NCBI GenBank assembly: GCA_000002445.1
Contig: CP000070.1
Span: 512,001-576,000 of the forward strand
Length of the DNA stretch: 64,000 bases
Direction: 5' to 3'
Source: Trypanosoma brucei
Lineage: Eukaryota
Positions 12,116 to 63,093 of this stretch are shown here, piece after piece. The translations under genes were made by a program, and so were the position numbers. The notes under the pieces are model-generated. The model did no database searches. It worked only from the letters and a program-made list of their open reading frames with translations, and was not told where the DNA came from. Within the stretch, counting starts at the first letter, position 1. Each line of letters begins with the position of its first letter.

Positions 12116-12129
12116 TCCCTTCCGAGTGA

Positions 12130-16015: not shown

Positions 16016-17931
16016 ATGATAAAAGGTAAAATATTTTTTTTTTCAAAAATGAAAAAGGAAAGAAACAACACGCCAAAGAAAAAAAAAAGAAAAAGAGAAA
16101 CAGCGATGAGTTTCATGTATGTGTGGCATGTTTTCTTTTTTGTTTCTTTTCTGTTCTCCTTCGCAACATTGAATTAACAAGGAACATTGAATAAGTAAAA
16201 GAAAAAAAAGGAAATAAAACGGGACACAGAAGTACACATTTCATTTCATATCATATCATTATATATTTGGTCATGCAAATGTATACAAATATATAAACAA
16301 ACTTTTTGCATACATTTGCTTTCTGTTTTGTTTTCTCTGCTAAAATAGAGCAACATATATATATATATATTTTTTATTTATTTATTTAGAAAGAAAATAA
16401 AAGAAGGAAGAAAAACAAAACAATACAACATTAAATAGCAGAGGCAAAAAGACATTCAGATGCGTGAATGAGCACAAAAAACGCAAAACAAAAAAAAGGT
16501 CTCAGATATAAAAAAAAAGGAGGGAAAGTAAAGTAAAGGAAAGGAAAGGAAAGGAAAACGAAAAAGATAGACTTCGTGTGAGATTGAGAGTTCTGACATT
16601 GGTGATTTCGTATAAATCAAGGAAAACATAACTTTTCTTTTTTTCTTCTTTTTTTTTTCTGTTTCTTCTGTTTATTCTTTTATTTTTTGTAGTTTTTTTT
16701 GTTGATTAATTAAATCCACACGTAAGGAGGAGGGGAAAAGAAGTGCTAACGTCACCACTTGCACAAGTGGTTTTTCCGTTGTGAACATATTACTCCTTTT
16801 TTCATATATTATTTATTTATATATTTTTTCCCTTTTTCAACTGACATCGCTAATAAATGCAATGAAATAAAAAGAGAGAGAGACGTCACACAACCCGCAA
16901 CTGACGTGGAGAGCAAACAAAAAAGAAAACGAAAAAAAAACAAATCACAAAAACTAAATAAAAAGAAAAAGGACTACACGCGAACCTCGAGCAAAGTCAA
17001 TAATAATAATAATAGTAATAAAAGAAGCACCGGTATAATTACAAAAAAAAACTTTCTCTTTCTTTCTTTTTTTTTAAAAATAAAAGAAATAGATCATGAG
17101 AATAACAAATAAATAAAATAATGATCGTTTTTTTTTCCCCCTTTCCTTTGACAAATCAACTTGTCAAATTTGAAATACGAACAGTATATAGAAATATATA
17201 TAAATGTTATACAAACACACCGGTTATGCCGATCAGAACTCCCTCGACACTAATTTTCTAAAGAAAAGGGAGAGGGAGAGAGAGAGAAAAAAAAAAGAAG
17301 TCGAAAAACATCCCCTTCCTTTTTTTCTTTGCAAAATAACATCAAATGTTCATTTTAATAACGGTTTATTTTATTTTCTCATTTTATTCTATTTTTTTAA
17401 ATTTCACTCTGTTTGTTTTTCCCTCCCCCGTAAAAAAAGAAAAAACACTTTTCTGAACACCTTTACATTCCCGCCATTACGCTTTGGCCACTGTAAGGAT
17501 GAAGGTAAAAAAAAAAAAGAAAAGAGAACAAGTGAAACGGAACCAAACAACAATAATAATTTTTAAAAAGGTAAGGAGGAAGAGGGTTGCACATTTTATT
17601 TAGTTATTTATCGCATTATTACTATTGTAATAAACCTTATCATCTGTTGTCCCTTTTTTTTTTCCTCCTTTTCACTTGGGGACATCGTCGTTGCATTATC
17701 AGCAATTAAAACCACATGTACTAAAACGCAAAAACACATGAAACGTTAAATAAAAATACACAAATATAAATGATTAAATATATTTGTATCCATGCAGGTG
17801 AGGGCGGGAGTATGCACATATATCAACTGTTAAATATATAAATATATAAATAAATATATATATATATGTTTATATGTGCGTGTGTTAAACTCGCACATAC
17901 ATGTATGAATAGTTATGTATAAATATATAGT

Positions 17932-17969
<38 letters not shown>

Positions 17970-18181
17970 CTTGATTTCCTTTTCTTATTTCTTAACGCTG
18001 CCGATGATTCCGCTATAATAACAGTTGTTCCTCATTATTCTAATTTACTCTCTCTCTCTCATCCCTTTCTTTCTTTATCGTGCACCAACATCTTAACGTA
18101 TGATTTGTTTGTGATTGAATGCTTAGTTCGTGTCTTGTTTGTTTGTTTTTGTTACCGCTCAATCAACATAATGTTAATCGG

Positions 18182-20662: not shown

Positions 20663-22639
20663 TTATTCCCATTCCGTCGTCCCCGGCGGTTTCCCCGTGA
20701 GATCATACATAACGCGTGATATGAAGTCAAATCCCTGCAAAGTCTCTACAATTTCCTTAAGAGCTTCCAATGGCATATCGGCTGATCCCGGAGCCGCTGG
20801 GACACCAGTCATGAAATCATTTGTAATAAAAGGCCTTATCACAACACTGAAGGGACCCTTTTCCTCAAAACCTATGGGTAATAGTACCACAGGCACTTGG
20901 CTGAGCCGCCTCACAAGTCCATATTTAATTAAGGCACGGTTAACGGTGTCATCCGCAAGCCGAAGTTTGTCCAGCACCTCAGGGACAAGAGATGACTTGG
21001 TCGCTTTCAACGGTGCCTCAGCTCGTTTAGGTCCAAACATAAACACGATACGGTTAACATTTGACGTTAACTTTGGAATAACCAATGCAAGACGCCCAAG
21101 GGAGTTCCACTCTTCTTTATTTGGGAGGCGACCGATGGAAAGTGCCGCAGCGTAGGCATATGTCCTGCCGTCGCCCTGCACGCCCACCGTTCGGATTGGT
21201 AAAATGCAGCTTGCAGGTTGGAGGCTACGCAATTCCTTGCAGAGTGGCTTTAACAGTTCGAAACGCTCATCACCAGCGCACACGGCCCGAACGTTTTCTT
21301 CTGTTCGAGCGTAGTGCTCGTCCTTAAAGAGTGATCCGTCGCTGCATAAAACACGAATAGCCAAACCGGGCCCGGGAAAAGGTTGGCGCTGCACTAAGTG
21401 AGTTGGAATGCCGAGTCGAGTACCCAGTTCCCGCACCTCATCCTTATGGTAGTCGCAAAGTGGCTCGATGATTCGACCCTCCGCTCTCAGTTGCCGCACA
21501 ACTGCCGTATCATTGTGGTGCGTTTTTATTGCATCCGCCACCTTACTGGCGTAGGCCGAACCCGACTCGATCAAGTCAGGTCTCAAGGTTCCTTGAGCGA
21601 GTAACAGGTTATTCACGTCCAAATTAAGATCCTTCACCGCTGCATCACACACAGACATGAATGTGTTACCAATGATGACACGCTTCTCCTCAGGGTCTAT
21701 CGCCTCACAGAGTTTTCCCGTTTGGTACGCCCCTTTGCCACGCTTCGCTGGGAATTCCGTCGTTGCTTCAGAAAATTGTTTGGTTGCATCAATCAGCGTT
21801 ACGTTAACACCAGCGGCTCTCAGCGCCGCCACAACCTCTTGGCTTTCATTAAGCCGCATAAATCCATGGTCAATGTGTATGCATACCACTCGCTCCGGTC
21901 CAAGCGCTTTCAGCAGCAGCACAGCACAAACTGTACTGTCTACACCCCCTGAAGCGAGACACAAAACTTTTTGACCCTGAGTAGTGCGCTCACGAATCAG
22001 GCGCAGGGCCTTCTCCTCCCTATCCTCCATTGTAAATGTAAATTTACAGCCACAAAATGTTAAAAAGTTTTTCAAAATTTGAACTCCGTTCTCTGTAAGC
22101 TCCACCTCGGGGTGGAACTGTACACCAAACAGCGGAAGACTCTCATGTTGGACCGCGGCGATGATGTGTGCGCTACTTCGCGCCGTCACCTTCAGATGCG
22201 GCCCCGCTTCTGTGATGGAGTCGCCATGCGTGAGAAGCACCTTTTCTTTATTTGAAAGACCATGGAAAATGGGTGAGTTGGTATCAACGGTTATCTCATC
22301 TTGGCCATCCTCCCGTACTCCCGCACAACCAACTTTACCACCGAATGCTCGCGTGAGCAACTGCACGCCATAACAAATACCCAGCAAAGGTTTTCCAACT
22401 GAGAAGAGGTCCGTGTTATACGATGGCGCATCGGCGTCACTGATGGAACTCGGCCCACCACTGATGATAATTCCCTTAATTGAGGGATCACTACGAAGGA
22501 TATCAGTGGGGGTATCCAGTGGCATCACTCGAGACTCGACGCGAAGTTCCCGCACCTTCCTGTCAATCACCTTACCGTATTGAGAACCAGCATCAAGAAT
22601 GACAACACACTCCGTTACCGGCTCCTGTTGAACTGACAT
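20663..22639 (-). CDS. GMPS: GMP synthase [glutamine-hydrolysing]
   Basis: 658 aa with an ATG start (cat at 22637-22639). N-terminal class-I glutamine amidotransferase: VVILDAGSQYGKVIDRKVRELRV, GIIISGGPSS, catalytic Cys in GICYGVQLL, HGDSI. ATP-pyrophosphatase P-loop SGGVDSTVCAVLL. C-terminal GMPS dimerisation region ...IEPLCDYHKDEVRELG... The guaA domain order is complete. Confidence 0.92.
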   Translation of the reverse strand: MSVQQEPVTECVVILDAGSQYGKVIDRKVRELRVESRVMPLDTPTDILRSDPSIKGIIISGGPSSISDADAPSYNTDLFSVGKPLLGICYGVQLLTRAFGGKVGCAGVREDGQDEITVDTNSPIFHGLSNKEKVLLTHGDSITEAGPHLKVTARSSAHIIAAVQHESLPLFGVQFHPEVELTENGVQILKNFLTFCGCKFTFTMEDREEKALRLIRERTTQGQKVLCLASGGVDSTVCAVLLLKALGPERVVCIHIDHGFMRLNESQEVVAALRAAGVNVTLIDATKQFSEATTEFPAKRGKGAYQTGKLCEAIDPEEKRVIIGNTFMSVCDAAVKDLNLDVNNLLLAQGTLRPDLIESGSAYASKVADAIKTHHNDTAVVRQLRAEGRIIEPLCDYHKDEVRELGTRLGIPTHLVQRQPFPGPGLAIRVLCSDGSLFKDEHYARTEENVRAVCAGDERFELLKPLCKELRSLQPASCILPIRTVGVQGDGRTYAYAAALSIGRLPNKEEWNSLGRLALVIPKLTSNVNRIVFMFGPKRAEAPLKATKSSLVPEVLDKLRLADDTVNRALIKYGLVRRLSQVPVVLLPIGFEEKGPFSVVIRPFITNDFMTGVPAAPGSADMPLEALKEIVETLQGFDFISRVMYDLTGKPPGTTEWE

Positions 22640-36227: not shown

Positions 36228-37358
36228 TCACTGCCCTAAAGAAGTTGCGCCGTATGGATTGTGTCTCACACTTCCCGTGTTACGGCGAGGTGCATTGGCC
36301 AATGGTCGAAGTAATGGCCCACCAAACATTGAAGCACCAGCGCCCACATTTTCACATACCTGATGATGACTGAAGGATTGACATGTACGAGAAAAACTGT
36401 GTGGATGCTGTTGTTCCATTCCTGGTCCCATGTATGAATTACTGTAGGAAAGGCCATGACCATAATGTACGTGAGTCATGTCACCGTATGGAGGCCAATA
36501 CGGGTAATTGGCAGCAGGAGGACAACTGTTGGCTTGAGGAGGAAAGAAACCAACACCGCCATCATCGGCATAACGCCCTCCTCTTTGAGGGTAACCGCCA
36601 TTACACCAATCAGGCGCATTGGGGTCAAAACTTCGCTTTCTTGAGCACTGCGAATCACGACTGCTGGTGCTTTGCATGAATGGAGGGGAACCAAAAGAAC
36701 TGTTAGGCACTTGTCGTTTCCTTCCACTTCCCAATGGCGAGGCGGAAGCGGAAGTACGCGAGTGATGGAGACCAGATCCCGTGCTTGAGGCGTCCTCTCC
36801 AACAAAAGCTATTTCCCGGCAAATGTGCAGGAAACCGCATTCCTCACCGAAGCGACACAATCCACGCCGGTGCTCACGACACACTTTTTCCCTCGGCAAA
36901 TCCAAAGTACTGTCACCGCGCTCTGCGTACGCACTCCACAGGCAATTTGTTGAATTCATACGGGGAAGAGTAATGGAGGTACCACCAACATTTACTTGTA
37001 AATTCAGCGGAAGTCCACTGGAGGTACACGGGGCGCCATGAAAGAAACAACACGTTGGTTGCTCAAGTGCCTCTTGCCGAAGTTTCTCCACCACTTCCGG
37101 ATTGGCGTGAACTTGAAAACACCGCGAGCCCTGACGGCATCGGCCCTCCATGTAAAGTCTGCAAACACCAGGCACAAGTCCGTCATCATACATGGCATTT
37201 GTTGGCTCTACGGCGGAACCAGGAATGCGTAATTTTGTGCTAAGATGATCGAGAGCATCCACATACGCTGGGGTGACGAAAGGTGAAGCCGTCATGACGT
37301 TGTGCTGAGACCCTAACGAATGAGGGGAATGAGTCACTGTGTTCATTGAGAAGGACAT
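36228..37358 (-). CDS. CCCH-type zinc finger RNA-binding protein (ZC3H family); two C-x8-C-x5-C-x3-H fingers and a Pro/Gly/Tyr-rich C-terminus
   Basis: 376 aa with an ATG start (cat at 37356-37358). Finger 1 VCRLYMEGRCRQGSRCFQVH. Finger 2 VCREHRRGLCRFGEECGFLH. The C-terminal half is low-complexity (PPQANSCPPAANYPYWPPYGDMTHVHYGHGLSYSNSYMGPGMEQQ). Confidence 0.8.
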   Translation of the reverse strand: MSFSMNTVTHSPHSLGSQHNVMTASPFVTPAYVDALDHLSTKLRIPGSAVEPTNAMYDDGLVPGVCRLYMEGRCRQGSRCFQVHANPEVVEKLRQEALEQPTCCFFHGAPCTSSGLPLNLQVNVGGTSITLPRMNSTNCLWSAYAERGDSTLDLPREKVCREHRRGLCRFGEECGFLHICREIAFVGEDASSTGSGLHHSRTSASASPLGSGRKRQVPNSSFGSPPFMQSTSSRDSQCSRKRSFDPNAPDWCNGGYPQRGGRYADDGGVGFFPPQANSCPPAANYPYWPPYGDMTHVHYGHGLSYSNSYMGPGMEQQHPHSFSRTCQSFSHHQVCENVGAGASMFGGPLLRPLANAPRRNTGSVRHNPYGATSLGQ

Positions 37359-39647: not shown

Positions 39648-42600
39648 CTACACGCAAACAGGGCGTAATGGTCGGTTCATGTTTTCTGTAAAGGGAATTC
39701 CCTTCTTTCCCGCCACAACATCGGTGATGATGCCTTGGTCACCACCTGTAATGTTGTTGTGTGCGGCTACCACCTTCGTAGCGAGGATGAGAATTCTTTT
39801 ATACTTCTGCCCTAAATTCTGAGGTTTGGGCCCCAACTTCCCCTTCATTACGCGTTTCCACAACCCCTGCAAGATATCCATGAGTTCGGAATCGGCGGTG
39901 ACCATGAAGCAACATTGGACCTGTTGCTGACGCAACCAACGAAGCGGATGGGAACCACCGTCGCGGCCGCTAATGACTGCAGCGCACATGAGTGACATCA
40001 GTGAGACATGACGGTGTAAAGAGAGGCAGCGACTAGGAAGTGTTTTCAGATCCGGAACATCTTTCGAACGTAACCGCTTAATTGTTACAGTCAGTGATTT
40101 TGCAGGCGGTCCCGCGGTTTTACGCCGCGGTGCGCAGAAACCTCCAGACGCCTCAACCGGCTGCTTCAACGCCTCGTCCAATGGGGTGTAAGTGTAACAA
40201 CTACCAGGACGAACAGGGAGTTTACCGCTTTTCAGTTTTCCACATGGCACAAGCACATGACCAACACAGTACGTGGTTGTCTCTCCAGATGCATCCACAA
40301 TGTCATAACACGCTTCCACATAAAGGGAATCCTCAATTGCACCAGTGAAGAAGAGGCGGTCACTACTGCTCTTGCCAAACTTCCACTTAAACCCCCCTTT
40401 GTTTGCTTTCCCCACTGACACAGCTTGAAGAACCTCCGCAGTCATCCATTCCGAATCCTTTGATTTTCGTACACTCACAAGACAATAGCAGCGGGCATTC
40501 TCCGGCACCTTTTCACTGATACGAAGTTTTTCTACTCCAACTTCAAGATAGCATCCCTCCACACCTTTCTGTGTCCAAATGTTGGCGCTCACAGTGGTGT
40601 AAGAGTTGGCAGTAGACATGAGTAAAGTGTTTAGTTCGTCATCTTTATCACCGTTTATCATAAATGGCGCCTTCGGTACAAGGTGTTTGGGCCGTATCGT
40701 ATCGTGGAGGACGGCGTCATCGCCCTCACATAAGTACCGGTCACGTAGATTTGAGTTGTTGGCCAATAACTTCACATATTTTTTTGGATTAAAGACGGAA
40801 CCAAAGGCCAGCTCGTAAAGAAATGACGTGGCATCTGTCACTCCTTTTACCGTTGGGTTCAGCAGTTTTTCGACTAGCGGAGTGTACAAAACACGCAACT
40901 TCATCCCGGTACCCACAGTAACTACCATAATAGCGTGGCACACATATAAAAATGCTTCGATATAACGAAGGAGTTGCACAGCCACCTTCCGTTCAGTGAT
41001 ACCTTTAGCCACAATAAATGATCCAACGAACACGTCACCCGATTCACCATTCCAGTACACTTTGTGATCGCCGTACTTCCACCCCTCTCCGCAGCATCGA
41101 ACAGTGGTTTCATATGTCTGCGGTTGTATCCACCGTTTCTCGCCTTCGGCATCATCTACGATGTTTTCAGTTGCTTCTTGAGGTTGATCCGCGACACAAA
41201 GAAGAATTTGGCCTTGAGAGACCTGAGGCCGCAGAAATATTTTAAATTTCCCAACGGTTTGGGTTACTAAACCACAATACTCAAGGATTTCGAAGGCAAT
41301 GCTTAGTGGGACTTCGCCCGAATAGAACTCGTCATACGCGACGAACATCGACATGACTTTCTCCGTGAGACACCTGCTACCGTAATACTCCAAGATTGTC
41401 CTTGCTTTTTCACGGGGCACCACCGTATCAACATCCTCAAGAATCTTATACCGCTCCTTGGCCTTCTCCACACCAACCGCCCTCAACGCAAACATCAAGC
41501 TTTTCCTAGTGAGATTCCTTGAGGGTATAACTGAGATCGGGGCTTCAACAATATCCGCTGGTGAGTTCGCCTCATCGGATGCAATCCTTTGCGAGTCAGA
41601 TACTTTCCTTTCCTTCAAATCCTTAGCTGCTTCTACTTCGGTGTTCAATACCTTCAGAACTCTGTTGCGTTCCATGGTTTCAACCTGTAACTCGGCAAGT
41701 TGGTCAAGAAACGATGATAAAGTGTCTTCCATTGAGCTGTGCGGAACTATGCAACCTCGTGGCAATGAGTGAAATCGGGGCTCTGCTTCGGACGGGGCGG
41801 CGAGCAAAATTGTTTTGCGTATCCTTGCGGGCGAGGGAATCTCAGTGGACTCCGAACTTGTCACGCCGCCTTCCCCACTGAGTTCGATGCTGTAATCACC
41901 ACTTTTTGAGGCGCTATAACTTTCCGATCCGGTGTAGCCGCTAGTAGTTGGCTTAATTAGTGATGTGGTGGTCTCAACAGTGCTTTTAGAATGCTGTTCG
42001 GCACCTTTCGGTTCTTCTACCGCCTTCTGGGTTTTTGTTGCGCTTTCCGAATAATCATAGGAGTAGTCGTATTCACTGTCGTAATATGAACCTGTATATC
42101 CCAATTCTGAGGAGCTAACCGATACTACGTTAGCATCTTGCTCTGGTTGTGGGGCTTTAACAACGTGTGATGGGGGTAGGGGGTGTTTCACCTCCGGCGA
42201 GCTCACACTGCCGTAAGAATAAGAATAAGAATAACTGTACGAATCATCGTCTTGAACTCTTCCTCTGACAATCGGGCTTGCCGCCGGTGGAGCAGTGTGG
42301 GAGTGTGTTTCTGGCTTCGGGGGCTCCACGGGCCGTGCAGGTGCAGCAGCTTTCACTGTAGTAGTGTAATCTCCCCCAGAGCTGTAACTCTGTCCAGGCA
42401 TCCTCTGTGTGTAGCTATAACTTGAGTAGGAGCCAGTGTAGGAGCCTGAATGCGAACCATATGGTGAATAACTATAATAATCAGAACCACTGCCACTGAA
42501 GTTGTCAATTTTGAGCCCCTCTGTCGAGGTGGCCGGTGCCCGACCGAGCTGAGTCTTTGAAGGCATTTGTTGTGTTCTCGCTGCCTGGTACTTGTGTGCC

Positions 42601-43459
42601 ATCCCAACTGGTTGCTGACTTCCCACACGTGGATGTTGAATATTTGCTGGCGGTTGCGAATGCACGGCGGGTGGTTGCTGATTTCCAACAGGCACCTGTT
42701 GAGCCCATGGAGACACCTGCTGAACTCCCATTTGTAAGTGAGGTTGAGCCATGGGAGGATGCTGATGACCCACAACGGCTTGTTGGTACTTGGCATTTGC
42801 TGGTCGTTGCTGAACACTCGTATGCGTCTGTTGTTGATCCTCTTTTGGAATCTCTGGAGTCCGCAGTGACGGTCGCCGACTTCCTGTTGGTGGCTGCTGC
42901 CGAGATCTTGCAGACATTAACGGATCGTCCCCATGCCGCTGTTGAATATTTGCTGGCGGTTGCGAATGCACGGCGGGTGGTTGCTGATTTCCAACAGGCA
43001 CCTGTTGAGCCCATGGAGACACCTGCTGAACTCCCATTTGTAAGTGAGGTTGAGCCATGGGAGGATGCTGATGACCACTCGTTTGCGACGTTTGTTGGGT
43101 TATGGTTGGCATCTGCATGCTTCCGATAGGTGCTTTCGGTGCACTAATATTTGTTGTGGTTCCTGCCGCGGCGCGTTTCTTTTCACTGTCTAACTGGGCG
43201 GCACCTGCAACGTGACCGGAACGGGCGCTGGCAACGACATTATGCCCCTCATCGGTGGAGTCGCTGTAACTATAGGAATAGCTCGAGTATGATCCGGTGT
43301 AAGACTCCGTTGAAACTCGTGCGGCGCTGTTGCCACGAGGCCCCTGCACACTTTTGGATGGCACTGGTTGCTGAGGTGCAACTGGGGCGCGAGGGGGATG
43401 TTGCGGTGCAAGTGGCTGAACCTGCAGTTGTGGCTGCAGCTGCCCACTTTGGGTGTACG

Positions 43460-43498
<39 letters not shown>

Positions 43499-43760
43499 CT
43501 CTCGCCGGTGGGGGCTGCGTTTTGGTGCCTGACGACTCTATGGTTTGGGAATATGATGACGATTCATTACTATTAGTCCTGCTGGATTGTGTATAAGAGC
43601 CGTAGTAGCTATAGTCGTCCGAATAGTCGCTGTAGCTGTAACTCGAGCTTTCATCTGCCTGTGATGCGCGCTTGTTTCCTGCGGGACCGGGGCGAGTACC
43701 CGCATAGGGAACAACAGTCACATCCCCAAATGTAACACGCGCACGGTTCGTCCGCTCCAT
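39648..43760 (-). CDS. Large low-complexity protein, 1370 aa: Ser/Tyr-rich and Gln-rich N-terminal two-thirds containing an internal duplication and a polyQ tract, followed by a C-terminal globular region of about 600 aa (unknown function)
   Basis: ATG start (cat at 43758-43760). YSYSYSYS/SGSY/DYSY runs. Q12 tract. A 44-aa segment HQHPPMAQPHLQMGVQQVSPWAQQVPVGNQQPPAVHSQPPANIQ occurs twice, 102 aa apart. The C-terminal region (about aa 770-1370) is non-repetitive. Confidence 0.75.
42635..43077. repeat. Perfect 137-bp direct repeat, two copies (42635-42771 and 42941-43077) with a 306-bp period, inside the 1370-aa CDS
   Basis: Both copies read gttgaatatttgctggcggttgcgaatgcacggcgggtggttgctgatttccaacaggcacctgttgagcccatggagacacctgctgaactcccatttgtaagtgaggttgagccatgggaggatgctgatgacc with 100% identity by eye. 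The flanks diverge. Confidence 0.85.
43461..43496. repeat. (TTG)12 on the plus strand, equal to (CAA)12 on the coding strand, encoding Gln12 in the 1370-aa protein
   Basis: ttgttgttgttgttgttgttgttgttgttgttgttg. The protein shows QQQQQQQQQQQQ. Confidence 0.9.

Positions 43761-43859: not shown

Positions 43860-43863
<4 letters not shown>

Positions 43864-43896
<33 letters not shown>
43864..43896. repeat. (TA)n microsatellite about 100 bp upstream of the 1370-aa gene start
   Basis: tatatatatatatatatatatatatatatatat. Similar (TA)n tracts occur at 47121-47156, 56611-56640, 58851-58880 and 63961-63996. Confidence 0.9.
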
Positions 43897-43903
<7 letters not shown>

Positions 43904-45951
43904 CCGACCGTCCCAGTTGATCTATGCGCTAAGGCACTTCCCTCTATGCTCCACCCTGAACGGAATGTCAGGGAGGCTTTTATGTCAAGCGTCCCTTCTA
44001 ACGAGTAACCCACGATGTGGTAAAATGGGGTCTCTGTTTTCTCTTCGCAGCGTTCCTAATAATAGTGCCGCTAAATCTATACAACAAAACACATGAGGAT
44101 GTTAAGAGAGAAACATATGCGTAAAAAAAAAAAAAAAGAAGCATTATACAGCCACAAAACAACAACATGGTACATCTTTCTCTCTCTCAAGCTGTCGTAC
44201 CATCTCCCTCCCGTCTCCTCTCTATTTACCAAGAACCGATACAACCATTCTCTTTACTTTCTCTCCTACACTTTATTCTTAATATATTATTTACTTATTT
44301 TTTTTAGGGGACGAGTGTGGAAAAGAGAGGTGACAATACATATCACTTCGCAAAGGAGGGTGGTAGTTAAGAACCTTCCAACAAAGCCTCCTTCCCGGTT
44401 TGTCATTAACTCTCTTACTAATCCATTTTTTTTTCATTTTTACCGCCATCAACTTTGCGATTTTTTTTTACTACTCAGTTCTCCTTCTTTTTTTTTTTGC
44501 GTGTTTCTTTTCCTTCCTTATTCATCCTCCCTCTTCTTATTCTTCAAGTATTCACCTTTGCGAAGTATTTATTCCTTCCCTTCTCTACCACCTTTTTTAC
44601 ATATATCGTTTACCCCTCTTCGTTAAGTTTATTATTGAATACAAGTAAGCAGAACATAAACAAAATAAAAAAACTGAGTCACTGTTAACACATTCGACAT
44701 GTAACAGTAGCAACCCACAACTGCAACTTATTCCCTCCCCCCCCCTTCCCTTCTGCTCTTATTATTATTATTATTTTTTTTCTTTACTGGTGTTGGTGTC
44801 ATAAATTGAAGTGGCAACAAAACTATAATAAGTAAAATAATAAAGACTAAGTATCCACATATAATTTAATCATTTTATTTTTGTATCTTTCATTTTTTTT
44901 ATCCAATACGTCTCCTCCATCCCACCCTTCTTCCTTCTCTTCTTTAATATTTCCTTTAAAAAGAGGTTCGAAAAAAAAAAAGTAGGGAAATGGGAGGAAA
45001 AGTTGAATGAAAAAAATGTTACAGCGTAACCAAACAACCGAGTTGGGTCAACAAGGAGGAGGGAAAGAAAAACAGTAAAAAAAAAAAGAAAAAAAGAAAA
45101 AAAGAAACAAAAAAAATTAACCACTACATTACCAGCAGCGGTAACACCTACCTCGCTTTGCAAGTTATAGGAAATTCACCTGCAGAAAACGAGAAATAAT
45201 CGAGCACAATACACACTCACACACGCACATTCGAAGGTAAATATAAATAAATTTGTACCTAAATATATTCAAGAAAAATTGTTTTTGTTCCGTAAGTAAG
45301 GGAAGTGTTAGGAAAATAGGTAAGAACGCCTATGGGACACGGACCACACGGTGGAAATAGTAATATTGATAGTAACAATGATGAAATGTATTGCTATCAT
45401 CATGATATAACTTCCTCTTCACGGTGAGGTACATGTGTGTGCGCGTGCCACGTATACACTTCACTTGCACAAGTACGTACATCCACCGCCACCCCCCAAA
45501 AAAAAAGAGCAACAATAAATTTTTGGTCCATCAACATGACCGATAAATGAATAAAGCTCCTCTTTTTCTCTTCCTCCCCCCAACATATGTTTTTTTTTTT
45601 GTACGGCTAACGCAGTCACTAACCACTTTCAAATACCTGCAAGGAGGGAAATTAAAAATAAATGAATCAGCGCCAGTATGTCTGCTTACACGGTTACGGC
45701 ACACATAAACAAAAACCAAAAGCAAAACAAACAAGTTATAACTCCACTAAAATGCTATTTCCGCCCTCCCATCATCCCTTTACTCTTTCTCTTGTCTAGT
45801 ACGATTTCACTACTCTTCGGTTGTGTTTTGATTATTTTTATTTTATTTTATTTTACTATCCGTTGCACAATCCATTCTATTCAATATTTCCCTTTTGGTG
45901 GTGTTGTTTCTCTTCCGCCTTGTTGGGAATGATTGTCCCACTCCGTATAGC

Positions 45952-47784: not shown

Positions 47785-50700
47785 CTACTCATCCGCGACA
47801 GCCGCTGCTGCAAGTTTTTGCTCACGCCACCTCTGGAATGCCTTCTCTCTTTGTTCATGCAGGCGACGCTTTCTCTCTCTGTTTTTGGCGATCCGCTCCT
47901 GCTTAGCCACCATGATCCGCTTGCGTTTTTCCTCTCTTTCCTCTTTCGTAAGGATTTGGGACCGCTCGGTACGAATCATTTGCCTCTCCAAGCGGTCGTT
48001 GATTCTGAGAGTTTCGCGTCGCCGCCGCTTAGCAGCCTTCTCCTCATCAGTCAATTCTCCGTTGCGGTGCGCTGCAAGTGCCCGCACAACCTTCTTTCGA
48101 ACACGTTTTGCACGGCGGTAAAATGCAGCCTTTTCTTTTCGTCCACTTTTCTCGTACTGTTTATATAAAACACTCACCGGAGACGGAGCTTTTGTCTCTC
48201 GAGCTCGCGGCGTGAGGTTGAGAAGATTTTCCATTGCTGCCAGAAGGCGGATAGTAGCGGCCGATGTCATTAATGAATCGTCGTCTACCACTTCCTTCAC
48301 AATGTTGGAAGCCCATGCCGTGTCCAGCTGTACACGACTATTGTACTTGAGCACCATTTTGAGGCAATGCAAGTAGTCGTACAGAAGTGTGTACTTCATA
48401 TTATATACCGAGGTTGGTGTTACCGATTGAAGGAAACTGCTGATTGCACTTGCGGCGGATGCACGTAGAGTTGCCCCCAAGCCGGAGAGCCGCGGTAGCA
48501 CCGCTTCTACCATCTGACAACATCCTTGAAACACTCTTACGCGCTGGGGCCCTTCCAGAACCTCCACTTCGCTAAACTTCTCCAATGCTGCGGGTAGCAG
48601 TGCCCACGCAAACCCGTGACGGTAATGATGCATATCCCGCTTTACGGAAGGCATTCGTTTCTTTCCATCCCAACCACGGTCGCAGAAGATGGACTTGTAA
48701 AACTCCATCAACGTCACTCGAACGTCTTCACCTGCGTGGTTCTTATGTGCGAGGAAGGCGATGAAATGAAACACGCGAAGAGCCACGTCCTTCAGTCGGG
48801 TCATGCGCCGACGAACTACAAGAGCGTGTCGTGCCGAACGGCTCTCTTTGTTTACTAAAACCCGGTCCAGTTTGCGGCAATAGCTTTGAATGTCGGAAAG
48901 AAGTTGGAACAGACTCTCTGCCACGAGAAACCTTCCGAAGTAACGATTCTTCGTCATCATAAGCATTTGAAGGGACGAAACGGTACTGTTGAAAATCACG
49001 TCATCCGCCGCCTTCACATTTTCTCGACAAACCGCCAACAGAACCTGAAAAATGTGTACTGTTAATGGAGAGCGCATAGCCACCCCAACTCGTGTTGCAA
49101 CTTGAATTGCTCGGACAACATCACCCTTCTCCTTATTGGCTGTATCCGTTGGATACACGAATTGAAGATCTACGTTCCCAATCATACCCTTCAGTGCGTC
49201 AATGTACTGCTGAGTTGGAGCTTCTTCTTCCTCTTCGTCACCTGTATCAGATTCTTCATCCTCTACATCTGGATTGAGTTGCTCCTCATCGGCTCCCTCC
49301 TCCGGCTCCGTTGCTTCGTCCTCCTCAGTGGGTTCTTCGCTTTCATCCGCCTCTGTTTCTGTTTCTGTTTCTGTCTTATCCGCTTCATCCTCAGAGGGTA
49401 CATCACCCCCCTCGTCTTCCTCATCTTCGTCTTTTTCATCAACTTGAGTGCCTTCGTTGTTCTCGTCCTCCTCGTCACCTTCTTCTTCATCAGCTGAAGA
49501 ATCTTCCGCCTCTGCAGCTACTCCCTTTGCTTTAGCTTGCCTTATTAGTTCCCGGTCGTCCGTATGATAAGCCTCACGAAGCGGAGCCAAGACAAGGTCC
49601 AGAGTTGGCCGCTCTCGAACATAACGAGCAAAACGTAAAAGATAACCCGTCGCAATGCGGCGCACGCACACCATAAGGGGTAACACGTGAAGTGCCGAAG
49701 ACGGTCGCATCACGAGCGCCATCAACACATCATAAAACAAATCCAGAGTTTCCAACGTGCCCGTACGAAAGAACTGGCAAAGATCAGGTACCGTACTGTT
49801 AGCGAGGTTTTTCGCCTCTTCATTGCTGGGGTCGTCGGTACTCAGAATCAGAAAAAGCAATACGAGCAGCACATGAATATCTCGCTCCTCATAAAACAAG
49901 ACACTGCGGGTGGAAGAGCTTTCCAGTGCCTCAACAATACAATTGCGGGCCTTGCGGAAGTTGCGCTCAGTTGCGCCAGTGGTGTATCGCGTGATGCCCT
50001 TCTCCTCAGCCGCAAGATAATCCCTAATAACGCTTAAGGCACTCAACGTGCATTTTGGTCTTGACAAGGCGGCGGTGTACGTGAAGGAAAATACGTCCGA
50101 AAAAAGGTAGATAGCCCGATTCATGCATTTCTCATCACTGGACTTCGGAGTGGGGTAAAACCCAAACCGCAGCAAGGCACGAACCGCCTCGTCGACGTAT
50201 GTGCAAGTTACGCCCTCACGTAGCGGCACACTTAAGCAAGCCCGCAACTCCCGTAGCACCCACGTGCGGTTGGCGTGCGCAGACGGGTCCGAGTCCCTAA
50301 TGCAAAAATATTGTTTAATGAGGTCTCGGACTTTAGCATCCAGCATTTCAAGAGGCATCATCCGAAGTTCGTTGGGATCTGAAGCTTTTGCAACTATCTT
50401 CCTTCCATAACCCACCGCTTGGCTGGCAATCTTCAACATTTCTTGGCGTTGGTCGGCATCGTCGTTTTTTACAACCAATTGACCTAAACGGGCGACGAGT
50501 TGCTGAAACAGCGCCCGGCGCGGAATATCTGAGTTACCACGGCGGTAAGGCGCAATGGCGTTGTGCATCATTGTACTTAAATGCTCCTGCAGTGATTCAC
50601 CAGCGGCACAGCGCTGCACAAGGAGGTCAAACCAATCGTCCCACACGGGATGAACCATTGGGTACACGGCAATCACCTGTTCCTTGCGGAACAGAGCATT

Positions 50701-52230
50701 GGCAATTTGTTCCACTGTTGTTGGTTCTAGCGGATCCATCGCAGCATACTTCTGCACGGTGGTTGGGAGAAACTTTTTAATTGCCGGAGGTTTCGTCTCC
50801 ATTGCCATCAGACGTAGGAGCAGTTGCACTCCCTCTGGGCGAAAGTATTCTAACTTGGGGTAGAGGAAAAAGGCATATGATATCCATTCCATCACCGACT
50901 CATCCTCCCACAGCTTGGGAAACTTTTGAAGCGTTATTAACAATAAAGCCGCTGTCATGACGCGCGTAGCCTTTTGCTCAACGTAGGCAAAACATAAGTA
51001 CTGGGCGGCATGACGGGCATCTTCCACTCGCATCTTCCCACGGTTTGCAACCACGGCTCCCATCGCAAAAACAGCAGCTACAATGCGCTGGTTACGCTCA
51101 CCCCGCGTAGGGTCATTAATTGTGTCTGGGTCAAAATCATCCCAATCTCCCTGGTCTTCTTTCTGTTGCTCGCCTTGTGTATCTCTTCTCGCAGCCCGTG
51201 CCTCTAGTCGAGCCTTTGTGACTTTTAGCCGGGCATCGAGTGCTATTTCCTCTCCAATGAGTGAAAGCACAATAGATGGTGTAATGTCCGTTTCGCGCAA
51301 TGCAAGAAATAGAATATGTGCATGCAAAACAATCATCGCCATGTCCTCAGTAACCATGCCTAGCAGCATACGTGACAGAGCGTACGGAAGTGCGTGGTGC
51401 GCTGTATCCCGCATACTTTTCAGCGATCGGCAGTCAACGCCATCCACTAATTTGGCCTTTAGATGGTTAATCAGTGAATGCTGACCTTCTTTCCGACGGG
51501 TCGAGTTATGCCGGAGGCACATTTGGAGCAACGCACGAACGTGTTCCCGCTCCTTTACATTTTTGGCGAGCACTGCTCGAGACCGACTGACTTTTCCGTG
51601 TGTTTCGACCTGTTCACCATCCTTTTGATCACTGGCAGCAGCCGCCTCCTCCTCCTCATCTCCGCTGGTTAAACCCTGCGCTTTATTGTCGTAGTGTTTT
51701 TTGGTTCCACCACCGCGGCCCTTCCCCTTATTAAGTTCGTACTCTGCCCACTCATACCATACGATAAATGCTTGTACACTATTCGGTGCACCGCGTTCAA
51801 ATTTGCTTAAATATGAACGAAGAGATCGCACATCCTCCGGCAAATGTTGCTGAATAAATGGAGGAGGCACAAACTTGAATATCTCACTCAAATCCGCACC
51901 AAAAATATTGGTAGCATTTAACCTCGTTTTGAAGCTGGACAGATCGGAGCGCAACTCGGAGGAAACCTTGGCAGCTAAATGAATGTCAATGTCCTTTGTC
52001 CGAGCCGATCTCTGATGGGATCTTCCCTCGTGATTCCCAACAGCGGTGTGCTGCTGCGCGTGATGACCGCGGCGCTCCACCTGCTCTCGCGCATACTTTT
52101 CTTTATGATACCTTTTCGCCTCCTTCTTCACGTTGGTTGCTTTCCCCATTTTAGCCGAAGGCTTAACGTTACGGCGAGGGCCGCCGCTGGTGCCCCCTTT
52201 ACTCCCATGCTGAGCAAAGGAACCAGACAT
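47785..52230 (-). CDS. Very large protein, 1481 aa, with a basic N-terminus, a long helical-repeat-like body, an internal poly-acidic stretch and a Lys/Arg-rich C-terminus. It may be a nucleolar MYBBP1A/POL5-like or similar pre-ribosomal factor (speculative).
   Basis: ATG start (cat at 52228-52230). The acidic run ...AEAEDSSADEEEGDEEDENNEGTQVDEKDEDEEDEGGDVPSEDEADKTETETETEADESEEPTEEDEATEPEEGADEEQLNPDVEDEESDTGDEEEEE sits at about plus 49230-49530. The C-terminal 130 aa are KR-rich and coiled-coil/NLS-like (EEKAAKRRRRETLRINDRLERQMIRTERSQILTKEEREEKRKRIMVAKQERIAKNRERKRRLHEQREKAFQRWREQK). Confidence 0.8.
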   Translation of the reverse strand: MSGSFAQHGSKGGTSGGPRRNVKPSAKMGKATNVKKEAKRYHKEKYAREQVERRGHHAQQHTAVGNHEGRSHQRSARTKDIDIHLAAKVSSELRSDLSSFKTRLNATNIFGADLSEIFKFVPPPFIQQHLPEDVRSLRSYLSKFERGAPNSVQAFIVWYEWAEYELNKGKGRGGGTKKHYDNKAQGLTSGDEEEEAAAASDQKDGEQVETHGKVSRSRAVLAKNVKEREHVRALLQMCLRHNSTRRKEGQHSLINHLKAKLVDGVDCRSLKSMRDTAHHALPYALSRMLLGMVTEDMAMIVLHAHILFLALRETDITPSIVLSLIGEEIALDARLKVTKARLEARAARRDTQGEQQKEDQGDWDDFDPDTINDPTRGERNQRIVAAVFAMGAVVANRGKMRVEDARHAAQYLCFAYVEQKATRVMTAALLLITLQKFPKLWEDESVMEWISYAFFLYPKLEYFRPEGVQLLLRLMAMETKPPAIKKFLPTTVQKYAAMDPLEPTTVEQIANALFRKEQVIAVYPMVHPVWDDWFDLLVQRCAAGESLQEHLSTMMHNAIAPYRRGNSDIPRRALFQQLVARLGQLVVKNDDADQRQEMLKIASQAVGYGRKIVAKASDPNELRMMPLEMLDAKVRDLIKQYFCIRDSDPSAHANRTWVLRELRACLSVPLREGVTCTYVDEAVRALLRFGFYPTPKSSDEKCMNRAIYLFSDVFSFTYTAALSRPKCTLSALSVIRDYLAAEEKGITRYTTGATERNFRKARNCIVEALESSSTRSVLFYEERDIHVLLVLLFLILSTDDPSNEEAKNLANSTVPDLCQFFRTGTLETLDLFYDVLMALVMRPSSALHVLPLMVCVRRIATGYLLRFARYVRERPTLDLVLAPLREAYHTDDRELIRQAKAKGVAAEAEDSSADEEEGDEEDENNEGTQVDEKDEDEEDEGGDVPSEDEADKTETETETEADESEEPTEEDEATEPEEGADEEQLNPDVEDEESDTGDEEEEEAPTQQYIDALKGMIGNVDLQFVYPTDTANKEKGDVVRAIQVATRVGVAMRSPLTVHIFQVLLAVCRENVKAADDVIFNSTVSSLQMLMMTKNRYFGRFLVAESLFQLLSDIQSYCRKLDRVLVNKESRSARHALVVRRRMTRLKDVALRVFHFIAFLAHKNHAGEDVRVTLMEFYKSIFCDRGWDGKKRMPSVKRDMHHYRHGFAWALLPAALEKFSEVEVLEGPQRVRVFQGCCQMVEAVLPRLSGLGATLRASAASAISSFLQSVTPTSVYNMKYTLLYDYLHCLKMVLKYNSRVQLDTAWASNIVKEVVDDDSLMTSAATIRLLAAMENLLNLTPRARETKAPSPVSVLYKQYEKSGRKEKAAFYRRAKRVRKKVVRALAAHRNGELTDEEKAAKRRRRETLRINDRLERQMIRTERSQILTKEEREEKRKRIMVAKQERIAKNRERKRRLHEQREKAFQRWREQKLAAAAVADE

Positions 52231-61083: not shown

Positions 61084-63093
61084 CTACTGTTCCCTCGACC
61101 CACCGTCTGCACCGATGTATGAAATAATTGCGCTCCCCGTACCACTCCCCGACTCATCACCTCGCACGTCAAACCACATGGGAAGCTGTCGAGCTATGAG
61201 CACAATGGAGCCGTACCGACGAACTAACTGTCGTGCATCGCGTGGAAGGTAATTCAGTACGGTAGCTTCCTGAGCCCCACCCACAGTGAACATTGCAATC
61301 AGCCGCACAAGATCTGCAAGCGTACGACACGGTGAATGAAGTAATTCTGCAGGTGGAGGCTGGCCATCCCTACGACCAACGACAAGGACCGTACTGAAGA
61401 TCACTTCATATATTTTGAAGAACTCACGGTGACGCTCAAAGAACTCCTGTTTACACTCCCACACATCAAACGGAAGCTCTCGAGCAGCGGGTGAGTGGCG
61501 GAACCGAGTCCATAACACCGGATGCTCAATTGGCATAACTTGCATCAACATCCTCGCCTTCTCCTTTTCGCTCAGTTGCCTTCCAGGCCCGCAGACACTC
61601 CGAGCACCCGCAGAAGACGCGGGGATTCTTACGCCATGAGACGCAGCCGCGAGAAAAGGCGTCCACACGAAGCCCTCCTTCAACAGTAAGTATAACGAGT
61701 GCTGCTTTACAAAGGCTTCGACGGAGGCATACGCACATTGCAGTTGCCCTCGACTGCTTGTTGAAAGCGAGGCGACAAGTTCCTCAACCGAAAGGGGTTT
61801 CTCCCCAAGCAGCTGGAGACATTGGCGCAGGACCACTGGTATCGGAGTAGTCTGCCACGTCAAACTAGAAGGTTGTTCATGCCGTTCCATCACTTCCCAC
61901 GGCCTAACCATATATGCTGTCATGTTTACGTCGAAAAGGTGACGAAGTCGATCAAAGACAAAAATGCACGCGGCATCCTTGTGAGTTGCCGGATAAATGT
62001 GAAGCCGCTCCATAAGGTCTGACGGCAGCACATCATCCAACTCCGTCATAGCTATGCCTGACCGCAGGCGCTGCAGGTTCTCGGGACTTGCCGATGCAAA
62101 GTTACGGAATGCTTCGATTAGCGGTTGGCCAAGGTTAAGCACCTCAAACCCCTGAGCAGATAAAGCCTCGCTGCCAACGTAGGGACGACGGTCGGCATCC
62201 ATCATGCGGAGAAACACATCATTTATATCGTCTCCGGTCACACGACAATCGAGGATAGTGGCAGGTACACGCTGCAGTTCCTCCAATATCTCCTTCAAGG
62301 TGGCATCCGGAGAGAAGCACATACCAGAACGAGGCGATTGCATCACACTCCGAAGCGGAATATAAAATGAAAATGGAACAGTTTTTTGAAGAAGTAACAA
62401 GATTCGATTAAGCTTCGGATCATCAAAAGCGCTAATAGTTAACGTCGACTCATGAATGGATTCTGCTTGTCTGGTTGCATGACCAGCAGTAGAAAAGGCA
62501 GGAGCTGACGCTGCCAGTGGGTTGGATGTCGATGTTGGTGGTATCGGGTTCAACCCCATACGGGTCACAAAAGATGTTGGTGATGCCTTTACTATGCCAT
62601 TCTGTACCAGCACAAGTGATGCGTGCTGCAAAAGGAAGGCCTCCAGTAGGCGCTCATTACCACACTTCCGTTGCTCAAGCGCTGGTAAAGAACGGTACAA
62701 TTGTGAAACAGATAGTTGCTGTTGGGGTGAGGCGGCAACATTTGCCAAAACTTTTGCAATTAATGGAGTGCTACTTCCGGCGCGTCGCAGCTCGCTGGCG
62801 AGCATTACAACAGTTAAGCCGGACGAGGCGACCTCAACCTGAAACTTCGATGGCCGCTCCTTCACATACTGGCCGAGTCCACCTGTGTTATTTGATACAA
62901 GTTCCAACATTTCATCACTTAGTAAAGCGGAGACGCGCGGTAAGGGGAGTGCACCGTGACGACGCAATATAACCCGCATATTTTCCCACAGCATATCGTC
63001 CTCCTTCTGTGTGAGTCGCAAGCGCATGGAGTTCAAAAGTGCGCCGCAAGCCATTGTCACCGCTGAATGCGGATTTGAGCGGAAGCCGCGCAT
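61084..63093 (-). CDS. Hypothetical protein, 669 aa (no family recognised)
   Basis: ATG start (cat at 63091-63093). Long non-repetitive ORF on the common coding strand. N-terminus MRGFRSNPHSAVTMACGALLNSMRLRL... is basic. Confidence 0.7.
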   Translation of the reverse strand: MRGFRSNPHSAVTMACGALLNSMRLRLTQKEDDMLWENMRVILRRHGALPLPRVSALLSDEMLELVSNNTGGLGQYVKERPSKFQVEVASSGLTVVMLASELRRAGSSTPLIAKVLANVAASPQQQLSVSQLYRSLPALEQRKCGNERLLEAFLLQHASLVLVQNGIVKASPTSFVTRMGLNPIPPTSTSNPLAASAPAFSTAGHATRQAESIHESTLTISAFDDPKLNRILLLLQKTVPFSFYIPLRSVMQSPRSGMCFSPDATLKEILEELQRVPATILDCRVTGDDINDVFLRMMDADRRPYVGSEALSAQGFEVLNLGQPLIEAFRNFASASPENLQRLRSGIAMTELDDVLPSDLMERLHIYPATHKDAACIFVFDRLRHLFDVNMTAYMVRPWEVMERHEQPSSLTWQTTPIPVVLRQCLQLLGEKPLSVEELVASLSTSSRGQLQCAYASVEAFVKQHSLYLLLKEGFVWTPFLAAASHGVRIPASSAGARSVCGPGRQLSEKEKARMLMQVMPIEHPVLWTRFRHSPAARELPFDVWECKQEFFERHREFFKIYEVIFSTVLVVGRRDGQPPPAELLHSPCRTLADLVRLIAMFTVGGAQEATVLNYLPRDARQLVRRYGSIVLIARQLPMWFDVRGDESGSGTGSAIISYIGADGGSREQ

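What the first reader, a model, noticed from the sequence alone, without database searches (positions are those of the whole stretch)
39648..43760. 1370-aa Ser/Tyr/Gln-rich protein with a perfect 137-bp internal direct repeat and a (CAA)12 tract, a candidate length-variable prion-like or phase-separating protein
The N-terminal two-thirds are extreme low complexity (YSYSYSYS, SGSY, DYSY runs; Q12; Q/P/H-rich segments). Two 137-bp segments (42635-42771 and 42941-43077) are 100% identical at the DNA level, 306 bp apart, duplicating a 44-aa peptide. Perfect identity implies recent duplication or ongoing gene conversion and predicts repeat-number polymorphism between strains. It also creates a collapse risk in short-read assemblies. 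The SY-rich plus Q-rich composition resembles FUS-like low-complexity domains. The roughly 600-aa C-terminal region is non-repetitive and unrecognised.
Basis: seen in the sequence. Interest (0 to 1): 0.55.

Follow-up and report, generated by a model that had tools for sequence, protein, structure and literature searches.

The report
Trypanosome transition-zone protein TZP150, length-variable

Summary
A 1370-aa ORF lies on the minus strand at 39648-43760.

Gene order identifies it as T. brucei Tb927.7.2150: CGM1 = Tb927.7.2080, GMP synthase = Tb927.7.2100, ZC3H18 = Tb927.7.2140. Its mass of 150.07 kDa fits the name TZP150, a published flagellar transition-zone marker.

The predicted length variation is visible in public alleles.
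- Poly-Q is 12 (window), 9 (DAL972) or 8 (T. equiperdum, AAX69341.1).
- The 45-aa repeat is double in the window, DAL972 and T. equiperdum.
- It is single in AAX69341.1, a precise 306-bp deletion.
- The T. equiperdum assembly has a gap starting exactly at copy 1.

The SY-rich composition is conserved from Trypanosoma to Leishmania and unnamed relatives, and is encoded by mixed codons. That indicates selection on the protein. The Q/P-rich repeat region is specific to the T. brucei group.

Phase separation or self-association of the SY domain remains an untested inference. The gene is known; the interest is moderate.

The parts
39648..43760 (-). Complete CDS of TZP150 (Tb927.7.2150), 1370 aa, 150.07 kDa, including the stop codon
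   Evidence: ORF list; mass; gene-order anchors CGM1 = Tb927.7.2080, GMP synthase = Tb927.7.2100, ZC3H18 = Tb927.7.2140; 99-100% identity to T. brucei, T. b. gambiense and T. equiperdum entries
41841..43760 (-). N-terminal low-complexity, probably disordered half (aa 1-640): S 15.6%, Q 11.9%, P 10.3%, Y 6.6%; only 12.7% hydrophobic residues
   Evidence: Composition and hydropathy windows
43590..43649 (-). SY cluster 1 (aa 38-57, SSSYSYSDYSDDYSYYGSYT)
   Evidence: aligned SY positions invariant in three Trypanosoma orthologues
43461..43496 (-). (CAA)12 microsatellite encoding Q12 (aa 89-100); length-polymorphic: 12 / 9 / 8 / 8
43383..43397 (-). PPRAP short motif (aa 122-126), PPR[AV]P in all Trypanosoma orthologues examined
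43251..43304 (-). SY cluster 2 (aa 153-170, SYTGSYSSYSYSYSDSTD)
42940..43076 (-). Repeat copy 1 (N-proximal; aa 229-273), 137 nt identical to copy 2
42771..42939 (-). Unique 169-nt spacer between the copies (aa 274-330); deleted together with one repeat copy in allele AAX69341.1
42634..42770 (-). Repeat copy 2 (aa 331-375)
42408..42488 (-). SY cluster 3 (aa 425-451, GSDYYSYS...SGSYTGSYSSYSYT)
42207..42248 (-). SY cluster 4 (aa 505-518, DDSYSYSYSYSYGS); contains the SYSYSYS heptapeptide; partly a (TCTTAT)3 hexanucleotide repeat
   Evidence: heptapeptide self-assembly in PMC8163036
42048..42101 (-). SY/DY cluster 5 (aa 554-571, GYTGSYYDSEYDYSYDYS)
41955..41969 (-). TTSLI short motif (aa 598-602), conserved in most Trypanosoma orthologues
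41598..41723 (-). Long single helix (aa 680-721; model residues 41-82)
   Evidence: AlphaFold2 model m78f28d47c9e9
41274..41516 (-). EF-hand-pair-like helical domain (aa ~749-829) with a degenerate loop D-x-[FY]-[RK]-S-G-E-[LIV]-x-L
40731..41264 (-). Middle alpha/beta region (aa ~833-1010), high model confidence, no fold assignment obtained
40074..40556 (-). C2-type beta-sandwich (aa ~1069-1229) with the family signature D-x-[LI]-Y-[IV]-E-x-C-[YF]-[DE]
39714..40028 (-). C-terminal helical bundle (aa ~1245-1349)
39651..39665 (-). Conserved extreme C-terminus RPVCV (family pattern P-[VI]-x-[VI]-COOH)
   Evidence: Sequences
44123..44140 (-). Poly-T tract upstream of the ATG, a likely polypyrimidine signal for trans-splicing (inferred)
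   Evidence: Sequence read; kinetoplastid mRNA processing, from general knowledge

Best explanation
The ORF is TZP150 (Tb927.7.2150), a structural protein of the flagellar transition zone in the Trypanosoma brucei group. It has two halves.

Shown: the C-terminal ~730 aa is a folded module conserved across kinetoplastids and in more distant unnamed relatives. It consists of a long helix, a degenerate EF-hand pair (probably not Ca2+-binding), an alpha/beta region, a C2 beta-sandwich and a helical bundle.

Inferred: this module anchors the protein in the transition zone. The C2 domain would contact membrane lipid or microtubule/partner proteins, as C2 domains do in other ciliary-base proteins.

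Shown: the N-terminal ~640 aa is low-complexity. It has five Ser-Tyr clusters whose composition, and within Trypanosoma whose position, is conserved, and they are encoded by mixed synonymous codons.

Inferred: these tyrosine 'stickers' give multivalent, weak self- or partner-association that helps build the dense transition-zone matrix.

Shown: between the SY clusters lie poorly conserved Q/P-rich spacers. In the T. brucei lineage these acquired a (CAA)n microsatellite and a 137-bp intragenic duplication, and both vary between alleles.

Inferred: the variation arises by replication slippage and by unequal recombination or conversion between the copies, and it is most likely near-neutral variation in spacer length.
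For: Identity. Seven consecutive ORFs match Tb927.7.2080-2140 in steps of ten, anchored by CGM1, GMP synthase and ZC3H18, which makes this ORF number 2150. Tb927.7.2150 is called TZP150 and is used as a transition-zone marker in three papers. The calculated mass is 150,066 Da. Identity to T. brucei-group database entries is 99-100%.

SY domain. SY+YS dipeptides number 47 against 13.2 +/- 3.3 in shuffles. Six Ser codons and both Tyr codons are mixed within the tracts. SY positions are invariant in the three-species alignment. An SY-rich N-terminus (Y 4-21%) is present in every close family member, including Leishmania.

Variation. Q12/Q9/Q8, two versus one repeat copy, and a deletion junction made of the copy-1 upstream flank plus the copy-2 downstream flank. 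The Q/P repeat segment is absent from T. theileri and from the second orthologue.
Against: No experiment on the SY domain exists in the literature I could read. The primary paper (Dean et al. 2016) was not held, so I do not know any RNAi phenotype, exact sub-localisation or turnover. C2 membership rests on a predicted structure only; no Pfam C2 model matches any of the 26 members. A more distant subgroup of the family has an S/T-rich N-terminus with almost no tyrosine, so the SY stickers are not required for every member. The single-copy allele AAX69341.1 could in principle be an assembly collapse rather than a real allele. It differs from the window at four other residues, so it is at least a different haplotype or strain.
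Confidence: 0.6

Rival explanations
1. The N-terminal half is only a fast-evolving disordered spacer with no sequence-specific role. Its SY richness, poly-Q and duplication are all by-products of mutation (slippage, recombination, compositional drift). Function resides entirely in the folded C-terminal module.
For: The N-terminal half cannot be aligned outside Trypanosoma and varies from 263 to 640 aa. The Q/P repeat region is lineage-specific. A distant subgroup lacks Tyr entirely. Another transition-zone protein, basalin, is about 65% disordered and evolutionarily unconstrained.
Against: SY enrichment is kept across Trypanosoma, Leishmania and unnamed relatives despite complete sequence turnover. 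SY positions are invariant within Trypanosoma. The tracts use mixed codons, so they are not simple DNA microsatellites. Nearly all Tyr in the N-half sit in S/G/T/D/Y contexts (37 of 42), against 2 of 24 flanked by S/G/T/D in the C-half.
Confidence: 0.25
2. The SY clusters, flanked by Asp/Glu, are dense Ser/Tyr phosphorylation or docking sites. They recruit specific partners, or regulate assembly through the cell cycle, rather than self-associating.
For: The clusters have acidic flanks (DDSYSYSYSYSYGS, SYSYSDSTDE, YDYSYDYSE). Conserved short linear motifs (PPR[AV]P, TTSLI) in the same region suggest partner docking.
Against: No phosphoproteomic data were examined. The pattern is compositional rather than a fixed kinase consensus.
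Confidence: 0.2
3. One reading: a prion-like or phase-separating protein of RNA granules, whose repeat-number variation tunes its behaviour.
For: QNSYG content is 43% over aa 1-640 and up to 60% in 60-aa windows. There are 17 [GS]Y[GS] triads. The SYSYSYS peptide forms fibrils in vitro.
Against: The protein is a transition-zone marker, not a granule protein. No RNA-binding domain was found. The variable Q/P segment is the least conserved part. Asn is scarce, and the Q-rich part is interrupted by about 10% Pro, which is unfavourable for amyloid-type prion domains (general knowledge).
Confidence: 0.05
4. The 137-bp duplication is an assembly artefact of this window.
For: Perfect identity of the two copies. 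One database allele has a single copy.
Against: DAL972 has both copies at the same 306-nt offset with its own private differences. T. equiperdum retains the end of copy 1, the spacer and copy 2.
Confidence: 0.02

Closest known systems
TZP150 / Tb927.7.2150 (T. brucei transition-zone proteome, Dean et al. 2016, as cited in PMC7617938, PMC11190437 and bioRxiv 2025.11.06.687033)
   Same: Same gene: position next to ZC3H18, mass 150 kDa, 99-100% identity to T. brucei-group entries.
   Different: The papers I could read use it only as a positional marker. Its domain architecture, its conserved SY domain and its allele length variation are not described there.
C2-domain proteins of the ciliary base and centriole (CEP120 C2A/C2C among the hits here; CC2D2A, RPGRIP1L, C2CD3 from general knowledge) and AIDA-C2
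   Different: No sequence-level match to any Pfam C2 family. Different domain context (EF-hand-like pair, helical bundles, SY domain). Orthology to any of these proteins is not indicated.
FUS/EWS/TAF15 low-complexity domains
   Same: Tyr residues embedded in Ser/Gly/Gln/Thr-rich, hydrophobic-poor sequence; [GS]Y[GS] triads.
   Different: Here Tyr sits in short alternating (SY)n or DYSY clusters with acidic flanks, separated by long P/Q-rich spacers. There are no RRM, RGG or zinc-finger domains. The protein is a cytoskeletal flagellar component.
Synthetic prion-inspired heptapeptide SYSYSYS (PMC8163036)
   Same: The exact heptapeptide occurs at aa 160-166 and within aa 507-516, and in most orthologues.
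   Different: That work concerns an isolated peptide in vitro. Nothing shows that the tract forms polar zippers inside a 150-kDa protein in vivo.
Basalin (Tb927.7.3130), a disordered transition-zone / basal-plate protein (PMC6392502)
   Same: Kinetoplastid transition-zone protein with a large disordered fraction and rapid sequence divergence.
   Different: TZP150 has a large, well-conserved folded module detectable by HMM from Trypanosoma to Leishmania and beyond. Its disordered half keeps a distinctive composition.

Membership tests
TZP150 / Tb927.7.2150 orthogroup | Chromosomal position immediately after ZC3H18 (Tb927.7.2140) in the chromosome 7 polycistron | tested here: met
   CCCH ORF at 36228-37358 lies next to the target. 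CGM1, GMP synthase and ZC3H18 anchors fit the numbering. The DAL972 locus has the same neighbour.
TZP150 / Tb927.7.2150 orthogroup | Predicted mass about 150 kDa (TZP names follow mass; this naming rule is from memory) | tested here: met
   150,066 Da
TZP150 / Tb927.7.2150 orthogroup | Near-identity to T. brucei-group database proteins | tested here: met
   99-100% identity to AAX69341.1, XP_011774558.1 and SCU67894.1 apart from indels
TZP150 / Tb927.7.2150 orthogroup | Localisation to the flagellar transition zone | not testable with these tools
   Taken from the literature only
C2 domain superfamily | Eight-stranded beta-sandwich superimposable on solved C2 domains | tested here: met
C2 domain superfamily | Match to a curated C2 sequence model (Pfam) | tested here: not met
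   No Pfam hit for the window protein or for any of the 26 family members
C2 domain superfamily | Ca2+-coordinating Asp cluster in the top loops (Ca2+-dependent subclass only) | not tested
EF-hand | Paired helix-loop-helix fold | tested here: met
EF-hand | Canonical 12-residue Ca2+ loop (D1, D/N/S3, D/S/N5, G6, hydrophobic 8, E/D12) | tested here: not met
   The loop is D-E-F-Y-S-G-E-V-P-L-S-I. Position 3 is aromatic and position 12 is non-acidic across the family. It is therefore a degenerate, probably non-Ca2+-binding EF-hand.
FUS-family low-complexity / prion-like domain | Tyr-rich, S/G/Q-rich, hydrophobic-poor region of 200 aa or more | tested here: met
   aa 1-640: QNSYG 43%, hydrophobic residues 12.7%, 17 [GS]Y[GS] triads
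FUS-family low-complexity / prion-like domain | Association with RNA-binding domains (RRM, RGG, ZnF) | tested here: not met
   No Pfam domain. The folded part is EF-hand-like plus C2.
FUS-family low-complexity / prion-like domain | Demonstrated phase separation, hydrogel formation or prion behaviour | not testable with these tools
   Needs biochemistry. PLAAC and IUPred were not available.

The most novel reading that the evidence does not exclude
The conserved Ser-Tyr sticker domain of TZP150, held at the transition zone by the EF-hand-like/C2 module, forms a cohesive tyrosine-based meshwork (polar-zipper or hydrogel-like). This meshwork would be part of the physical ciliary gate, a flagellar counterpart of the FG-nucleoporin barrier, conserved across kinetoplastids.
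Probability: 0.1. Interest if true: 0.8.

Novelty: new member of a known kind. Interest (0 to 1): 0.35.

Why it matters
TZP150 is widely used as a landmark for the trypanosome transition zone, yet no mechanistic description appeared in the literature I could read. Three practical points follow from this analysis.
1. The gene is length-polymorphic at two sites. This matters for primer and tagging design, for RNAi and CRISPR constructs, and for interpreting short-read assemblies. One public annotation (T. equiperdum) is truncated because of the repeat.
2. The protein has a conserved folded module with C2 and EF-hand-like folds that standard domain annotation misses. This gives testable hypotheses for how it is anchored.
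3. It carries an ancient, compositionally conserved Ser-Tyr domain. That makes it a tractable case for asking whether low-complexity 'sticker' domains contribute to the material properties or gating of the ciliary transition zone.

Tried and rejected
- Pfam scan of the full protein and of all 26 family members: nothing. The single OB_SHLD2 hit at E 0.009 in one member is noise.
- First structure prediction with a 3-sequence alignment: poor (pLDDT 50.6) and not used.
- The afdb50 fold library was unavailable.
- First word-indexed homology search: only two relatives, and it missed the near-identical T. brucei entries. The exhaustive profile search was needed.
- Exact look-ups of the window protein and of AAX69341.1 in the contig index: nothing. 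I therefore could not read the DNA of the single-copy allele or determine which strain the window comes from.
- The primary TZP150 paper (Dean et al. 2016) is not held.
- Literature search for a described SY-rich domain in trypanosome transition-zone proteins: nothing relevant.
- Rfam scan of the whole window: no hit.
- Tandem Repeats Finder does not report the 306-nt unit. The duplication is A-B-A with a unique spacer, so I rejected the description 'tandem repeat array'.
Full report
**1. Observation**

The window reads as a kinetoplastid polycistronic unit. Nearly all ORFs of at least 200 aa are on the minus strand, and GC-richer coding blocks (about 45-53% GC) alternate with AT-rich spacers.

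The ORF at 39648-43760 (minus strand) encodes 1370 aa.

The exact direct repeat is 137 bp at 42634-42770 and 42940-43076. The offset is 306 nt, which is 102 codons and in frame. The duplicated peptide is 45 aa, at aa 229-273 and 331-375. Identity ends abruptly on both sides and the 169-nt spacer is unique. Tandem Repeats Finder does not call it. It is therefore an A-B-A intragenic duplication and not a tandem array.

(CAA)12 lies at 43461-43496 and encodes Q12.

Ser-Tyr clustering is far beyond what composition explains: 47 SY+YS dipeptides in aa 1-640 against 13.2 +/- 3.3 (maximum 26) in 5000 shuffles.

The low-complexity part is aa 1-640, or 47% of the protein. The remaining 730 aa have ordinary globular composition.

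**2. Identity**

Pfam annotation of the neighbouring ORFs gives these assignments:
- a bifunctional capping enzyme (8963-12262)
- GMP synthase (20663-22639)
- a BAG protein
- Dcc1
- a CCCH zinc-finger protein (36228-37358)

The literature gives CGM1 = Tb927.7.2080, GMP synthase = Tb927.7.2100 and ZC3H18 = Tb927.7.2140. The seven ORFs between these anchors fit the numbering in steps of ten, so the target is Tb927.7.2150.

Three papers name Tb927.7.2150 'TZP150' and use it as a marker of the flagellar transition zone, citing Dean et al. 2016. The calculated mass of the window protein is 150,066 Da.

An exhaustive profile search recovered near-identical proteins:
- T. brucei AAX69341.1 / Q57YH7
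- T. b. gambiense DAL972 XP_011774558.1
- T. equiperdum SCU67894.1

The primary paper is not held. I therefore cannot report any RNAi phenotype.

**3.

Alignment of the four T. brucei-group proteins, together with DNA from two of the loci, shows the following.

| Allele | Poly-Q / (CAA)n | Repeat copies |
|---|---|---|
| Window | 12 | 2 |
| DAL972 | 9 | 2 |
| T. equiperdum | 8 | 2 (copy 1 mostly lost in a gap) |
| AAX69341.1 | 8 | 1 |

- **Independent confirmation of two copies.** DAL972 is an independent assembly. It has the same 306-nt offset, and its copies differ from each other at two core sites.
- **The single-copy allele.** AAX69341.1 lacks exactly 102 aa. Its junction joins the upstream flank of copy 1 to the downstream flank of copy 2, which is what unequal recombination between the copies would produce.
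- **A distinct haplotype.** AAX69341.1 also differs from the window at four other residues. It is therefore a distinct haplotype or strain, not the same sequence mis-assembled. Collapse of a 137-bp repeat inside Sanger reads seems unlikely, but I could not see the reads.
- **Assembly gap.** In the T. equiperdum OVI assembly a 10-N gap begins at the first base of copy 1 and removes about 105 nt. The annotated protein therefore starts at an internal Met (aa 282).
- **Hint of gene conversion.** One core site is C in both DAL972 copies and T in both window copies and in the T. equiperdum copy. This is one site only.

The duplication therefore predates the divergence of these subspecies. It is real, it is an assembly hazard, and both it and the CAA tract vary.

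**4. What varies and what is conserved**

The Q/P-rich segment carrying the duplication is an insertion relative to T. theileri and to a second Trypanosoma orthologue. Poly-Q of eight or more occurs only in the T. brucei-group sequences; T. grayi has Q5 at the corresponding place.

The SY clusters behave differently.
- They align positionally across three Trypanosoma species, with invariant S/Y columns at aa 153-165, 436-445 and 507-515.
- They are encoded by a mixture of six Ser codons and two Tyr codons. That argues for selection on the peptide rather than microsatellite expansion. The exception is a short (TCTTAT)3 stretch in cluster 4.
- An SY-rich N-terminal region precedes the folded module in every close family member: T. 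vivax, T. grayi, T. rangeli, T. theileri, Leishmania (Mundinia) and several unnamed kinetoplastid-like sequences. Tyr is 4-21% and there are 16-63 SY/YS dipeptides.
- A more distant subgroup has S/T-rich, Tyr-free N-termini.
- Two short motifs inside the disordered half are conserved within Trypanosoma: PPR[AV]P and T[TG]SLI.

**5. The 'unrecognised' C-terminal region**

No Pfam family matches the protein or any of its 26 relatives. No PDB sequence matches apart from a compositional RTF1 hit and a weak centrin-1 hit.

With three sequences AlphaFold2 gave a poor model (pLDDT 50.6). With the 26-sequence alignment the model is good: mean pLDDT 79.2, pTM 0.62, and 360 residues at 90 or above.

Its elements, in protein numbering, are:
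- a long helix (aa 680-721)
- a helical domain (aa ~749-829)
- an alpha/beta region (aa ~833-1010)
- a disordered linker (aa ~1014-1066)
- a beta-sandwich (aa ~1069-1229)
- a helical bundle (aa ~1245-1349)

Foldseek against the PDB returns C2 domains as essentially all top hits: NEDD4L, CEP120 C2A, anillin, PLC-gamma, PI3K and Trichomonas C2 proteins, with probability about 1.0.

The C2 domain carries a family signature, D-x-[LI]-Y-[IV]-E-x-C-[YF]-[DE].

**6. Mechanism**

Shown:
- The gene is TZP150.
- It is a two-part protein: a conserved folded module with EF-hand-like and C2 folds, and a compositionally conserved SY-rich low-complexity half.
- The Q/P spacers vary in length between alleles.

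Inferred:
- The folded module anchors the protein at the transition zone. C2 domains are a recurrent feature of ciliary-base and centriolar proteins, and CEP120 C2 domains are among the structural hits.
- The SY clusters act as tyrosine stickers, giving multivalent cohesion with themselves or with partners.
- The Q/P spacers tolerate slippage and unequal recombination because only their approximate length and flexibility matter.

The exact heptapeptide SYSYSYS, present at aa 160-166 and within aa 507-516, self-assembles into polar-zipper fibrils as a synthetic peptide. This is a lead, not a test of this protein.

**7. Rivals**

- A purely neutral spacer reading is weakened by the deep conservation of SY composition. 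It is favoured by the Tyr-free distant subgroup.
- A phospho-regulated docking-site reading is plausible because of the acidic flanks. It is not tested.
- The RNA-granule or prion reading conflicts with the published localisation and with the absence of RNA-binding domains.
- The assembly-artefact reading is excluded by the independent assemblies.

**8. Novelty and score**

The gene and its localisation are already known. The repeat and poly-Q variation is ordinary low-complexity polymorphism, now documented from public alleles.

In the literature I could read, three things appear not to be described:
- the EF-hand-like / C2 architecture
- the family's extension to Leishmania and beyond
- the ancient conservation of the SY domain

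I file it as a new member of known kinds (C2-domain ciliary-base scaffolds; tyrosine-sticker low-complexity domains) and give it moderate interest (0.35). The most novel reading left open is an SY-based cohesive meshwork that contributes to the ciliary gate. That would be interesting, but it has no direct support here.

Noticed in passing
window 39651-39665 (aa 1366-1370) and family members P0004-P0026: The extreme C-terminus is conserved as P-[VI]-x-[VI]-COOH across the family (RPVCV, IPVCV, VPVRI, PPVCI, RPVIV). This may be a C-terminal docking motif that C-terminal tagging could mask.
   Followed up: no
window 43383-43397 (PPRAP, aa 122-126) and 41955-41969 (TTSLI, aa 598-602): Two short linear motifs inside the otherwise unalignable disordered half are conserved across Trypanosoma species: PPR[AV]P in all sequences examined, T[TG]SLI in most.
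   Followed up: partly
P0013 (EukProt, 3374 aa), residues ~1370-1858: A distant family member, probably a fused gene model, has three near-perfect tandem copies of a ~67-aa SY/DY-rich unit in the equivalent low-complexity region. Repeat-driven expansion of this domain has therefore happened independently in another lineage.
   Followed up: no
L002 3995-4004 (T. equiperdum OVI CZPT02000839.1): A 10-N scaffold gap begins exactly at the first base of repeat copy 1. The public annotation SCU67894.1 (1089 aa) is therefore an N-terminally truncated model of this gene.
   Followed up: yes
window 43863-43903: A (TA)~20 microsatellite about 100 nt upstream of the start codon, inside the probable 5' UTR. 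A poly-T tract at ~44123-44140 is the likely trans-splicing polypyrimidine signal.
   Followed up: no
window 12000-18000: A long AT-rich stretch (28-34% GC, AT skew up to +0.22) with no ORF of 200 aa or more and no Rfam hit, lying between the CGM1 gene and the next ORF. It is unusually long for a spacer in this unit.
   Followed up: partly
window 47785-52230 (minus strand): A 1481-aa ORF with no Pfam match. By gene numbering it should be Tb927.7.2170, a hypothetical protein reported to co-elute with PUF10 and to be captured on oligo(dT) (PMC5724185). The numbering is inferred, not verified.
   Followed up: no
window 61084-63093 (minus strand): A 669-aa ORF with a DUF7883 domain (E 4e-45) and a weak Egalitarian winged-helix match.
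   Followed up: no
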